From the NCBI RefSeq assembly GCF_009914755.1, contig NC_060939.1: 64,000 nucleotides of DNA. One strand, given 5' to 3'. Under the pieces are notes generated by a model. That model worked only from the letters and a program-made list of their open reading frames with translations, was not told the origin of the DNA and did not search any database. Below are positions 46,082 to 52,703 of the stretch, one piece after another. This DNA comes from the human T2T-CHM13v2.0 reference genome, Homo sapiens. Numbering within the stretch: the first letter of the stretch is position 1; every line of letters starts with the position of its first letter. The translations under genes were made by a program, and so were the position numbers.

Positions 46082-46133
46082 AAAGTAGATACCGTCAGCC
46101 ACAGTGTCACCAGAAAAGATGAGAAAACTTTCC

Positions 46134-46414
46134 TTTTTTTTTTTTTTTTTTTCCCTAGACACAGCACTCCTTTAATCCCACAATGCTCTGTGGTAATTTT
46201 AAATCAGATACATTGAAAGGATATTAACTTTTACAATAATATTGTACAATTAAAACTATATATGTAAATCCAAGAAACTGGAGGAGTCTACATATACTGA
46301 GTTTCTTATTTAACAATAACTGATGATTTTTATATAATTGAGAATAAATCTTTATCAGATGATGAGACTCATAGAGGATAATAGGTCAATCATTATGGTA
46401 ATTTTTTAAATCTC
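46134..46414 (-). other. L1 3' transduction (unique sequence 46153-46414 plus second poly-A 46134-46152)
   Basis: Lies inside the L1 TSDs; minus-strand ATTAAA (46171-46176) sits 18 nt before the poly-A. Confidence 0.88.
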
Positions 46415-49400
46415 TTTTTTTATTACTATTATTACACTTTAAGTTTTAAGGTACATGTGCACAATGTGCAAGTTAGTTACATATGTATACATGTGCCATG
46501 CTGGTGCGCTGCACCCACTAACTCGTCATCTAGCATTAGGTATATCTCCCAATGCTATCCCTCCCCCCTCCCCCCACCCCACAACAGTCCCCAGAGTGTG
46601 ATGTTCCCCTTCCTGTGTCCATGTGTTCTCATTGTTCAATTCCCACCTATGAGTGAGAATATGCAGTGTTTGGTTTTCTGTTCTTGCGATAGTTTACCGA
46701 GAATGATGATTTCCAATTTCATCCATGTCCCTACAAAGGACATGAACTCATCATTTTTTATGGCTGCATAGTATTCCATGGTGTATATGTGCCACATTTT
46801 CTTAATCCAGTCTATCATTGTTAGACATTTCAATTGGTTCCAAGTCTTTGCTATTGTGAATAATGCCGCAATAAACATACATGTGCATGTGTCTTTATAG
46901 CAGCATGATTTATAGTCCTTTGGGTATATACCCAGTAATGGGATGGCTGGGTCAAATGGTATTTCTAGTTCTAGATCCCTGAGGAATCGCCACACTGACT
47001 TCCACAATGGTTGAACTAGTTTACAGTCCCACCAACAGTGTAAAAGTATTCCTGTTTCTCCACATCCTCTCCAGCACTTGTTGTTTCCTGACTTTTTAAT
47101 GATTGCCATTCTAACTGGTGTGAGATGGTATCTCATTGTGGTTTTGATTTGCATTTCTCTGATGGCCAGTGATGATGAGCATTTTTTCATGTGTTTTTTG
47201 GCTGCATAAATGTCTTCTTTTGAGAAGTGTCTGTTCATGTCCTTTGCCCACTTTTTGATGGGGTTGTTTTTTTCTTGTAAATTTGTTTGAGTTCATTGTA
47301 GATTCTGGATATTAGCCCTTTGTCAGATGAGTAGGTTACAAAAATTTTCTCCCATTCTATAGGTTGCCTGTTCACTCTGATGGTAGTTTCTTTTGCTGTG
47401 CAGAAGTTCTTTAGTTTAATTAGATCCCATTTGTCAATTTTGGCTTTTATTGCCATTGCTTTTGGTGTTTTAGACATGAAGTTCTTGCCCATGCCTATGT
47501 CCTGAATGGTAATGCCTAGGTTTTCTTCTAGGGTTTTTATGGTTTTAGGTCTAACGTTTAAGTCTTTAATCCATCTTGAATTGATTTTTGTATAAGGTGT
47601 AAGGAAGGGATCCGTTTCAGCTTTCTACATATGGCTAGCCAGTTTTCCCAGCACCATTTATGAAATAGGGAATCCTTTCCCCAATGCTTGTTTTTCTCAG
47701 GTTTGTCAAAGATCAGCTAGTTGTAGATATGCGACATTATTTCTGAGGGCTCTCTTCTGTTCCATTGATCTATATCTCTGTTTTGGTACCAGTACCATGC
47801 TGTTTTGGTTACTGTAGCCTTGTAGTATAGTTTGAAGTCAGGTAGTGTGATGCCTCTCCAGCTTTGTTCTTTTGGCTTAGGATTGACTTGGCGATGCGGG
47901 CTCTTTTTTGGTTCCATATGAACTTTAAAGTAGTTTTGTCCAGTTCTGTGAAGAAAGTCATTGGTAGCTTGATGAGGATGGCATTGAATCTATAAATTAC
48001 CTTGGGCAGTATGGCCATTTTCACGATATTGATTCTTCCTACCCATGAGCATGGAATGTTCTTCCATTTGTTTGTATCCTCTTTTATTTCCTTGAGCAGT
48101 GGTTGGTAGTTCTCCTTGAAGAGGTCCTTCACATCCTTTGTAAGTTGGATTCCTAGGTATTTTATTCTCTTTGAAGCGATTGTGAATGGGAGTTCACTCA
48201 TGATTTGGCTCTCTGTTTGTCTGTGGTTGGTGTATAAGAATGCTTGTGATTTTTGTACATTGATTTTGTATCCTGAGACTTTGCTGAAGTTGCTTATCAG
48301 CTTAAGGAGATTTTGGGCTGAGACAATGGGGTTTTCTAGATATACAATCATGTTGTCTGCAAACAGGGACAATTTGACTTCCTCTTTTCCTAACTGAATA
48401 CCCTTTATTTCCTTCTCCTGCCTAATTGCCCTGGCCAGAACTTCCAACACTATGGTGAATAGGAGTGGTGAGAGAGGGCATCCCTGTCTTGTGCCAGTTT
48501 TCAAAGGGAATGCTTCCAATTTTTGCCCATTCAGTATGATATTGGCTGTGGGTTTGCCATACATAGCTCTTATTATTTTGAAATACGTCCCATCAATACC
48601 TAATTTATTGAGAGTTTTTAGCATGAAGGGTTTTTGAATTTTGTCAAAGGCCTTTTCTGCATCTATTGAGATAATCATGTGGTTTTTGTCTTTGGTTCTG
48701 TTTAGATGCTGGATTACATTTATTGATTTGCGTATGTTGAACCAGCCTTGCATCTCAGGGATGAAGCCCACTTGATCATGGTGGATAAGCTTTTTGATGT
48801 GCTGCTGGATTCGGTTTGCCAGTTTTTATTGAGGATTTTTGCATCAATGTTCATCAAGGATATTGGTCTAAAATTCTCTTTTTTGGTTGTGTCTCTGCCA
48901 GGCTTTGGTATCAGGATGATGCTGGCCTCATAAAATGAGTTAGGGAGGATTCCCTCTTTTTCTATTGATTGGAATAGTTTCAGAAGGAATGGTACCAGTT
49001 CCTCTTTGTACCTCTGGTAGAATTCAGCTGTGAATCCATCTGGTCCTGGACTCTTTTTGGTTGGTAAGCTATTGATTATTGCCACAATTTCAGCTCCTGT
49101 TATTGGTCTATTCAGAGATTCAACTTCTTCCTGGTTTAGTCTTGGGAGAGTGTATGTGTCGAGGAATTTATCCATTTCTTCTAGATTTTCTAGTTTATTT
49201 GCATAGAGGTGTTTGTAGTATTCTCTGATGGTAGTTTGTATTTCTGTGGGATCGGTGGTGATATCCCCTTTATCATTTTTTATTGGGTCTATTTGATTCT
49301 TCTCTCTTTTTTTCTTTATTAGTCTTGCTAGCGGTCTATCAATTTTGTTGATCCTTTCAAAAAACCAGCTCCTGGATTCACTGATTTTTTGAAGGCTTTT

Positions 49401-52400: not shown

Positions 52401-52440
52401 GACCAGAGCTCTTCCTATTCGGCCAACTTGGCTCCTCCCC
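46415..52440 (-). mobile_element. Full-length L1PA2/L1PA3 (~6.03 kb); both ORFs disrupted
   Basis: 5' end GGGGAGGAGCCAAG; ORF1 and ORF2 fragments; 3'UTR GCATTGGGAGATATACCTAATGCTAGATGACGAG (GAG, not ACA); short 5'UTR form; TSD GAGAAAACTTTC at 46121-46132 and 52441-52452. Confidence 0.97.
51560..52440 (-). promoter_or_regulatory. L1 5'UTR internal sense promoter and antisense promoter region
   Basis: Complete CpG-containing 5'UTR; YY1 site altered (CAAGTTGGCC versus CAAGATGGCC). Confidence 0.65.
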
Positions 52441-52703
52441 GAGAAAACTTTCAACTTGCTCTTGGGCTGAAATTGTTCCTCCCACATTCCAGCTGACCAC
52501 TAGGACAAAAAGTCACTTTAGGATCTCCTTTGTCTTCAATTAAGATCAAGTCCCTGAGGAGATTCTAAATCTATAAGTCTGAGAGCTGTGAAGACAATTT
52601 GACAATTGGGTGTGTGTCGGAGTACAGATAAAAATGTTCCTTCAACATGTATTTTTGAAAACTTAGTACATGCAAAACTCCATTGAATTAAAACATGAAA
52701 GAA

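What the first reader, a model, noticed from the sequence alone, without database searches (positions are those of the whole stretch)
46121..52452. Full-length L1PA2/3 carrying a ~260-bp 3' transduction that tags its source element
Seen in sequence: the TSD GAGAAAACTTTC flanks the L1 5' end (52441-52452), but its partner is not at the L1 tail (~46415). It is at 46121-46132, beyond 262 bp of non-L1 DNA and a second poly-A (T19 at 46134-46152). The transduced piece has ATTAAA 18 nt upstream of that poly-A on the L1 strand, and the empty site reads TT|GAAA, an L1 endonuclease-like site. Established knowledge: L1 read-through past its weak polyA signal mobilises 3' flanking DNA. Inference: 46153-46414 came from another locus that held an active parent L1.
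Basis: partly seen in the sequence, partly recalled or inferred. Interest (0 to 1): 0.7.

Follow-up and report, generated by a model that had tools for sequence, protein, structure and literature searches.

The report
L1 relay that copied a tRNA gene
This dead full-length L1 arrived carrying 262 bases picked up from chromosome 13, and before it died it copied itself again together with the neighbouring tRNA-Cys gene, creating a second tRNA-Cys gene on chromosome 1 and a damaged one on chromosome 3.

Summary
A full-length minus-strand L1 (46415-52440) is followed by 262 bp of non-L1 DNA (T1, 46153-46414), ATTAAA, an A19 tail, and a 12-bp target-site duplication at 46121-46132 and 52441-52452.

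- T1 has one native copy, at chr13:33006319-33006584 (98%). That copy has no L1 upstream and no poly-A, so it is the empty source site.
- Older paralogs on chr14 and chr17 join both window flanks around a single target copy. They lack both the L1 and T1.

New here: this L1 was itself a source element.
- A full-length copy on chr1 and a 5'-truncated copy on chr3 carry L1, T1, the internal A-run, this window's own duplication and 520 or about 332 bp of this window's 3' flank.
- Each ends in a new poly-A and has its own duplication. Their 5' flanks are unrelated to the window.
- The second transduction carries the tRNA-Cys gene in antisense.
- The chr1 copy is structurally intact. It maps to tRNA-Cys-GCA-7-1, which has Pol III peaks in published iPSC data but almost no mature tRNA reads.
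- A third copy on chr3, inverted and truncated, carries T1 only.

The mechanism is ordinary. The outcome, a tRNA gene born by serial L1 transduction, is a neat example that my searches did not find in print.

The parts
52441..52452 (.). Target-site duplication copy at the L1 5' end (GAGAAAACTTTC on the + strand)
   Evidence: The exact 12-mer abuts the L1 5' end. The chr14 and chr17 paralogs have a single copy of this site.
46415..52440 (-). Full-length L1 of 6026 bp with broken ORFs. Its own A7 tail is 46415-46421.
   Evidence: Tnp_22, Exo_endo_phos and RVT_1 pieces; largest ORF 314 aa. Aligns at 94-95.5% end to end with the chr1 copy.
46153..46414 (-). T1, the first 3' transduction: 262 bp native to chr13:33006319-33006584. 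The L1-side border is ambiguous by 2-5 A/G bases.
   Evidence: 98% identical to chr13, where it lies in non-L1 DNA without a poly-A.
46171..46176 (-). ATTAAA poly-A signal of T1, 18 nt before the tail
   Evidence: Conserved in the chr13 native copy and in all 4 L1-borne copies.
46134..46152 (-). A19 tail of the L1+T1 insertion, with one extra G on the L1 strand at 46133
46121..46132 (.). Target-site duplication copy at the 3' end. Also the first 12 bases of what the offspring carried away.
45613..46132 (-). T2, the window's 3' flank that this L1 transduced. All 520 bp are present in the chr1 offspring, and 46132 down to about 45801 (about 332 bp) in the chr3 offspring.
45982..46054 (+). tRNA-Cys-GCA-5-1, antisense to the L1 and lying inside T2. 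It is the parent of the chr1 and chr3 tRNA copies.
   Evidence: Hub annotation. ARAGORN. Rfam tRNA 72.4 bits.
45828..45833 (-). AATAAA in the flank, about 27-30 nt before the point where the chr3 offspring's T2 ends in A14
45539..45795 (-). Alu in the same sense as the L1. The chr1 offspring's T2 stops inside it at about 45613 and is followed by A11. The Alu is full-length here and in the chr14 and chr17 paralogs.

Best explanation
This is a two-step relay of L1 3' transduction.

**Step 1 (inferred).** An active L1 once sat just upstream of chr13:33006319. The assembly holds only the allele without it. Its transcript ran past the L1 poly-A signal and ended 18 nt after an ATTAAA, 262 bp downstream.

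**Step 2 (shown).** That RNA was inserted by target-primed reverse transcription at a TTTC/AA site in the window. This site lies 66 bp from a tRNA-Cys gene, inside an older chr14/chr15/chr17 duplicated segment. The insertion left L1 + T1 + A19 flanked by the 12-bp duplication.

**Step 3 (shown by structure).** While still active, the window's L1 was transcribed past both earlier poly-A sites into its new flank. Two such RNAs were inserted.
- chr1:93355344-93362463 is full-length. Its T2 is 520 bp and ends inside an Alu. It has an A11 tail and the duplication GTAGTCAATC.
- chr3:17700178-17702401 is 5'-truncated. Its T2 of about 332 bp ends after AATAAA. It has an A14 tail and the duplication AATACCACA, and it sits inside an older L1.

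Both carry the tRNA-Cys gene in antisense, with its upstream DNA and TTTT terminator.

A third copy, chr3:73961186-73963322, is inverted and truncated as in twin priming. It carries T1 only and has a 16-bp duplication. It is either a sibling from chr13 or another offspring that stopped at T1's signal.

All copies are now dead.
For: **T1 and its source**
- T1 has 5 copies genome-wide.
- chr13 has no L1 within 8 kb upstream; only 68-70% fragments and Alus occur there. It has no poly-A after T1.

**Empty-site proxies**
- chr14 and chr17 join window ...46120/46132 directly to 52446/52449....

**Offspring structure**
- chr1 aligns to window 52438-45611 at 94-95.5% and then stops.
- The junctions show an internal A10, a copy of the window's duplication, the tRNA, 185 bp of Alu, A11, and GTAGTCAATC on both sides.
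- chr3 aligns to window 48019-45801 at 95.9%, inside an 88-90% older L1, with AATACCACA on both sides.

**Shared and unshared flanks**
- The L1's 5' flank (52441-52700) matches only itself, chr17 and chr14, never chr1 or chr3; 3 of 3 candidates were scored.
- T2 gives long matches only at chr3, chr1, chr14 and chr17. 40 of 64 candidates were scored, and the other 35 non-self matches cover essentially only the tRNA part of the query.

**Timing**
- Private substitutions over 2184 aligned columns are 43 (chr15), 47 (chr1) and 29 (chr3), a star-like pattern at 1.3-2.2%.
- 0 of 662 four-way columns group chr1 with chr3 against chr15 and the T1-only copy.

**tRNA copies**
- Rfam tRNA scores are 72.4 bits (window), 68.7 full-length (chr1), and 38.4 over model positions 5-66 only (chr3).
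- ARAGORN calls Cys-GCA in the window and on chr1 but finds nothing on chr3.
Against: - No source L1 is seen at chr13, so step 1 rests on the empty site alone.
- No ape or other human genomes could be searched. Presence, absence and dating are therefore indirect.
- The chr1 T2 ends with no AATAAA or ATTAAA in the 40 nt before it in today's parental sequence. How that 3' end formed is not explained.
- At window 46407, chr1 and both chr3 copies read T while chr15 and chr13 read A. At 46406 both chr3 copies read T. This needs either a reversion in chr15 or a lost chr13 haplotype that differed from the surviving one.
- The whole-genome search scores only the best candidates, so short orphan copies could have been missed.
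Confidence: 0.88

Rival explanations
1. The chr15, chr1 and chr3 copies are DNA-level segmental duplicates of one L1-containing segment, not retrotransposed offspring.
For: The three loci share L1, T1, the A-run, the 12-mer and the tRNA flank at 93-96%. The region does belong to an older chr14/chr15/chr17 DNA duplication.
Against: Homology stops exactly at the L1 5' end on chr1 and at a truncation point on chr3. The 5' flank is absent from both. Both copies end in a new poly-A followed by their own duplication, which matches the sequence just before their 5' ends. The chr3 copy interrupts an older L1 cleanly.
Confidence: 0.02
2. T1 was joined to the L1 by reverse-transcriptase template switching, from a polyadenylated chr13 transcript onto L1 RNA, during the chr15 insertion. 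No L1 ever sat at chr13, and all other T1 copies descend from chr15.
For: No L1 lies at chr13 in this assembly. The four-way comparison cannot separate the T1-only chr3 copy from chr15's offspring. L1 chimeras with other RNAs are documented (passages of PMC13174262).
Against: In the passages read, the documented chimeras place the foreign RNA at the L1 5' end. Here it lies 3' of a complete L1 tail, runs to a poly-A signal and tail, and is in the same sense, which is the signature of read-through. From memory, source elements lost by drift are common for old transductions. No evidence that T1's first base is a transcript start.
Confidence: 0.07
3. The 12-bp repeat is a chance match and 46134-46414 is ordinary local chr15 DNA.
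For: A third exact copy of the 12-mer exists at 26241.
Against: 0.03 copies are expected per window, and 0 of 100 shuffles reached 3. Both relevant copies abut the insertion ends. The paralogs lack 46133-52440. T1 is native to chr13.
Confidence: 0.01

Closest known systems
L1 3' transduction (read-through of the weak L1 poly-A signal; Moran 1999, Goodier 2000, Pickeral 2000, all recalled and not read here)
   Same: An L1 tail is followed by unique DNA, then a downstream poly-A signal and tail, with one duplication around the whole. The unique DNA maps to one other locus.
   Different: Nothing differs in mechanism. The source element is absent from the assembly, so the native locus is an empty site.
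Multi-generation (serial) transduction lineages used to trace active L1s. Listings seen include PMC6425141 (an L1 transduction family), PMC9311842 and PMC4862182, by title and abstract only.
   Same: The offspring carry the parent's transduction plus a second one from the parent's new flank. Nested tails and duplications record the order of events.
   Different: Those families are young, polymorphic or somatic L1HS. This one is an old family, about 1.3-2.2% private divergence per copy, and probably fixed. It is read from a single assembly.
Gene duplication by retrotransposon 3' transduction (SVA-mediated AMAC1 copies, Xing 2006; recalled and not read here)
   Same: A whole transcription unit in the flank is copied to new chromosomes by transduction.
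   Different: The cargo here is a Pol III tRNA gene carried in antisense, and the vehicle is an L1 rather than an SVA.
tRNA/LINE-1 chimeric insertions (PMC13174262, passages read)
   Same: tRNA sequence is found next to an L1 inside one insertion, mostly antisense to the L1.
   Different: Those are tRNA halves, positions 1-37, fused at the L1 5' end and ascribed to twin priming on tRNA molecules. Here a complete tRNA gene, with 369 bp of its genomic upstream DNA and its terminator, lies 3' of the L1. It was copied from genomic flank RNA rather than from a tRNA molecule.

Membership tests
L1 3' transduction (window insertion) | Non-L1 DNA lies directly after a complete L1 3' end, on the L1 strand | tested here: met
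   The L1 tail ...AATAGTAATA7 is followed by GAGATTT... The NCBI mask ends at 46392.
L1 3' transduction (window insertion) | The extra DNA ends in its own poly-A signal and tail | tested here: met
   ATTAAA at 46171-46176, 18 nt, then A19.
L1 3' transduction (window insertion) | One target-site duplication encloses L1 plus extra DNA, at an endonuclease-like site | tested here: met
   A 12-bp exact repeat; the nick site reads TTTC/AA.
L1 3' transduction (window insertion) | The extra DNA maps elsewhere, immediately 3' of a source L1 or its empty site | tested here: met
   chr13:33006319-33006584, 98%, empty site. The source L1 itself was not seen.
L1 3' transduction (window insertion) | The pre-insertion site lacks both the L1 and the extra DNA | tested here: met
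   by chr14 and chr17 paralogs only. Orthologs in other primates are not testable with these tools.
Serial (second-generation) transduction with the window L1 as parent | The offspring contains the parent's T1, tail, 3' duplication copy and 3' flank in parental order | tested here: met
   for chr1 and for chr3:17.70 Mb.
Serial (second-generation) transduction with the window L1 as parent | The offspring ends in a new poly-A and has its own duplication, and its 5' flank is unrelated to the parent's | tested here: met
Serial (second-generation) transduction with the window L1 as parent | A poly-A signal precedes each new 3' end | tested here: inconclusive
   For chr3, AATAAA lies about 27-30 nt upstream. 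For chr1, no canonical hexamer lies in the last 40 nt.
L1PA2/L1PA3 subfamily | Diagnostic subfamily positions | not testable with these tools
   No repeat library was available. Private divergence of about 2.0% falls within the 3.1-20.4 Myr range quoted for L1Hs-L1PA5 (passage). The L1PA3 age of 12.5 Myr is recalled.
Functional tRNA gene (chr1 copy, tRNA-Cys-GCA-7-1) | Intact cloverleaf and anticodon | tested here: met
   Rfam 68.7 bits over model positions 1-71 of 71. ARAGORN calls Cys-GCA.
Functional tRNA gene (chr1 copy, tRNA-Cys-GCA-7-1) | Transcribed and yields mature tRNA | tested here: inconclusive
   PMC10791582 supplement file 11. RPC1 peaks are present in 2 of 2 iPSC lines and in cardiomyocytes, and absent in NPC and neurons. 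3 of 118 and 1 of 64 reads were multimapping. Mature tRNA reads were 0,0,0,0,0,0,1,0 across 8 libraries.

The most novel reading that the evidence does not exclude
A Pol III-occupied human tRNA gene, tRNA-Cys-GCA-7-1 on chr1, was born when this window's L1 transduced its neighbour tRNA-Cys-GCA-5-1 in antisense. A second, decayed copy landed on chr3. This would be a documented case of L1 3' transduction seeding new Pol III genes, and a possible general route for dispersal of tRNA genes in primates.
Probability: 0.5. Interest if true: 0.55.

Novelty: new member of a known kind. Interest (0 to 1): 0.45.

Why it matters
L1 3' transduction is textbook. This locus preserves a complete, readable three-locus relay (chr13 to chr15 to chr1 and chr3) in one assembly, with nested tails and duplications.

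- It shows that an L1 of roughly L1PA3 age stayed active at chr15 long enough to fire at least twice.
- It shows that a source element can vanish while its tag survives.
- It shows that transduction can copy an entire Pol III gene to another chromosome, where the copy still recruits Pol III.
- It explains the origin of one annotated human tRNA gene. It also offers a natural experiment: the same tRNA gene sits in two chromosomal contexts with different expression.

Tried and rejected
- **Literature on the specific case.** I ran four full-text searches for a tRNA gene moved by L1 transduction and for catalogues of related transductions. I looked only at the top 12-15 listings of each, and none described this case. 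PMC13174262 (passages) treats tRNA-half/L1 5' chimeras, a different thing. Szak 2003, on families of related transduced L1s, is not held under the id I tried. An old catalogue entry for this family therefore cannot be excluded.
- **Sibling or offspring.** I tried to decide whether the T1-only chr3 copy is a sibling or an offspring of chr15. Of 662 four-way columns, 10 are private to that copy, 11 private to chr15, 19 to chr1 and 5 to chr3a. One column is shared by the two chr3 copies and none separates clades. This stays unresolved.
- **chr1 as intermediate parent of chr3.** 0 supporting columns.
- **Chance repeat and DNA-level duplication.** Both rejected; see the rival explanations.
- **A wrong recollection.** I first recalled the chr1 tRNA gene as Cys-GCA-10-1. 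The supplement showed that gene is on chr7, and the chr1 gene is Cys-GCA-7-1.
- **A mistyped tRNA.** ARAGORN's bacterial mode typed the tRNA used for the coordinate check as tRNA-Pyl. I used only its position.
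Full report
**1. Observation**

- GAGAAAACTTTC lies at 46121-46132 and at 52441-52452.
- The second copy directly abuts the L1 5' end. The reverse complement of ...52440 reads GGGGAGGAGCCAAG...
- The L1's own tail is only A7 (46415-46421).
- After it come 262 bp that NCBI does not mask. On the L1 strand these end in ATTAAA (46171-46176), 18 nt, and A19 (46134-46152), with one extra base at 46133.
- The 12-mer occurs 3 times in the window against 0.03 expected, and 0 of 100 shuffles reached 3. 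The third copy, at 26241, is in unrelated sequence.
- ORF fragments on the minus strand match L1 ORF1 domains, the endonuclease and the reverse transcriptase, in that order. The largest open frame is 314 aa. The element is full-length (6026 bp) but dead.

**2. Where T1 comes from**

A search of the window's own assembly with 46153-46414 found four other copies at 97-98% identity; 5 of 5 candidates were scored, self included. Alignment, BLAST of 15-20 kb around each and the junction sequences sort them as follows.
- **chr13:33006319-33006584** holds the segment in plain non-L1 DNA. No L1 of comparable identity lies in the 8 kb upstream. The sequence after the cleavage point runs on (...CAAGAGAACACTG...) with no poly-A. 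This is the native locus in its empty state.
- **chr3:73961186-73963322** is an L1 3' part plus T1 plus poly-A in a different flank. It has a 16-bp duplication (GAGAAACCAGA[A/T]GTTC, one mismatch). Its 5' part is inverted relative to its 3' part, the arrangement ascribed to twin priming.
- **The other two copies** are treated in section 4.

**3. Empty-site proxy inside the same genome**

A search with the 3' flank uncovered paralogs on chr14 and chr17.
- Both join the window's left flank (up to 46120/46132) directly to its right flank (from 52446/52449) around a single copy of the target.
- Neither paralog has the L1 or T1.
- The chr14 paralogy runs over window 43682-46120 and 52449-61979 at 87-92%. 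It is an older DNA-level duplication of about 12 kb into which the L1 later inserted.

**4. The window's L1 was itself a source**

*The chr1 copy.* It aligns with window 52438 down to 45611 at 94-95.5%, interrupted only by a chr1-specific Alu. It is a full-length L1 with these parts in order:
- T1;
- an internal A10;
- the 3' eight bases (GTTTTCTC) of the window's duplication, whose first four bases are lost into the A-run;
- 520 bp of the window's 3' flank.

The flank stops in the middle of an Alu that is complete in the window. A11 follows, then GTAGTCAATC, which also sits immediately before the chr1 L1's first base. If the preceding AAAAT is counted, with one mismatch, the nick site reads TTTT/AT.

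*The chr3:17.70 Mb copy.* It begins at the equivalent of window 48019 and carries T1, A14-G-AAA, the duplication copy and the flank down to about 45801. An AATAAA (window 45828-45833, minus strand) lies about 27-30 nt upstream of that end. It finishes in A14 and is bracketed by AATACCACA inside an older L1 of 88-90% identity.

*The 5' flank.* The window's 5' flank (52441-52700) has only three matches genome-wide: itself, chr17 and chr14. None is on chr1 or chr3 (3 of 3 candidates scored).

A shared 3' flank, an unshared 5' flank, a new tail and a new duplication mark a second-generation 3' transduction with the chr15 element as parent. They exclude DNA-level duplication. The reverse direction is excluded too, because only chr15 has the flank in its native, paralog-supported context and has the duplication on both sides of L1+T1.

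**5. Timing**

- Over 2184 gap-free columns shared by chr15, chr1 and chr3:17.70 Mb, private substitutions number 43, 47 and 29, or 1.3-2.2%. That is a star-like pattern.
- In 662 four-way columns that include the T1-only copy, none groups chr1 with chr3. Both therefore probably came straight from chr15, soon after it inserted.
- With a recalled neutral rate near 1-1.5 x 10^-9 per site per year, this is roughly 10-20 Myr.
- That falls within the 3.1-20.4 Myr span quoted for L1Hs-L1PA5 (passage). I could not type the subfamily.

**6. The cargo**

T2 contains tRNA-Cys-GCA-5-1 (45982-46054, + strand), which is antisense in the L1 read-through RNA. It also carries 369 bp (chr1) or about 180 bp (chr3) of its upstream DNA, its 3' trailer and its TTTT.

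My inference is that antisense carriage spared it from tRNA processing in the RNA intermediate.

| Copy | Rfam tRNA score | ARAGORN |
|---|---|---|
| Window (chr15) | 72.4 bits | Cys-GCA |
| chr1 | 68.7 bits, model 1-71 of 71 | Cys-GCA |
| chr3:17.70 Mb | 38.4 bits, model 5-66 only | nothing called |

The chr3 copy has lost part of the acceptor stem.

The chr1 copy lies at assembly position chr1:93362013-93362085 (-). This corresponds to hg38 chr1:93516276-93516349 (-), tRNA-Cys-GCA-7-1. I checked the 154,263-bp offset: a tRNA-like gene sits at the place predicted for tRNA-Arg-TCT-1-1. It is also the only chr1 hit among the 40 scored tRNA-Cys-like matches.

Rows I read from the supplement of PMC10791582 (file 11):

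| Gene | RPC1 (Pol III) peaks | Mature tRNA reads (8 libraries) |
|---|---|---|
| Cys-GCA-7-1 (chr1) | both iPSC lines and cardiomyocytes; not NPC or neurons | 0,0,0,0,0,0,1,0 |
| Cys-GCA-5-1 (window) | both iPSC lines, NPC and cardiomyocytes | 106 to 2365 |

For the chr1 gene, 3 of 118 and 1 of 64 reads were multimapping. So the transduced copy recruits Pol III, but its product is not seen.

**7. What is inferred, and what is odd**

- The chr13 source L1 is inferred, not seen. The main rival is a one-off template-switch chimera, with every other copy descending from chr15. I give it about 7%.
- The chr1 T2 end has no canonical poly-A hexamer in the preceding 40 nt.
- At window 46407, chr1 and both chr3 copies read T where chr15 and chr13 read A. 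At 46406 the two chr3 copies share T. Either chr15 reverted, or the lost L1-bearing chr13 haplotype differed from the surviving empty one.

**8. Comparison and verdict**

This is a member of the known class 'L1 3' transduction' and of its serial form. Every defining feature I could test was met, apart from the poly-A signal at the chr1 T2 end (inconclusive) and the primate orthologs. It differs from the recently catalogued tRNA/L1 chimeras (PMC13174262), which are tRNA halves fused at L1 5' ends.

In the top listings of four full-text searches I saw no description of a tRNA gene duplicated by L1 transduction. The older transduction catalogues (Goodier 2000, Pickeral 2000, Szak 2003) could not be read, so this is not proof of absence.

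The mechanism is ordinary. The lineage is unusually complete, and its by-product, an annotated Pol III-bound tRNA gene, is a modestly interesting new example.

Noticed in passing
window 43682-46120 and 52449-61979: About 12 kb around the L1 is a DNA-level paralog of chr14:67166487-67178618 (87-92% identity). Both ends fall at Alus (43679-43974 and 61683-61980). About 2.6 kb is also shared with chr17:39696167-39698995 (79-89%). Each paralog has its own tRNA-Cys (Rfam 69.5 and 42.8 bits). RPS12P25 (52993-53376) lies inside the chr14/chr15 shared part, so that processed pseudogene predates the duplication.
   Followed up: partly
window 46055-46071: Five differences from the chr1 offspring fall within 17 bp just 3' of the tRNA. 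At least one of them is also a difference from the chr14 and chr17 paralogs. The window reads TGCCTGAAAGTTTTCTTA and chr1 reads TTCCAGGATGTTTTCTCA. They create GAAAGTTTTCT, the inverted complement of 11 of the 12 bases of the duplication 52 bp away. This lengthens an 8-bp inverted repeat. It could be a short template-switch mutation, or just the raised mutation rate reported (recalled) for flanks of active tRNA genes.
   Followed up: partly
window 46406-46407 (T-run/A-run border at the start of T1): chr13 and chr15 read T3A6, chr1 reads T4A5, and both chr3 copies read T5A4. The total length is constant at 9. This does not fit the simple pedigree without a reversion or a lost source haplotype.
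   Followed up: partly
window 45990-46000 (tRNA D-loop) and its copies: chr15, chr1 and chr3 all have one more D-loop base than the chr14 paralog. The reads are CAGTGGGTAG (chr15), CAGGTGGTAG (chr1), CAGGGGGCAG (chr3) and CAGG-GGTAG (chr14). Parent and offspring have each changed a different G of the run since the copy was made.
   Followed up: no
window 26241-26252: A third exact copy of GAGAAAACTTTC sits in unrelated sequence. It appears to be chance despite the low expectation.
   Followed up: yes
L006+L007, chr1:93357428-93357729 (approx.): The chr1 offspring L1 has since been hit by an Alu insertion inside its body, between the equivalents of window 50340 and 50367.
   Followed up: no
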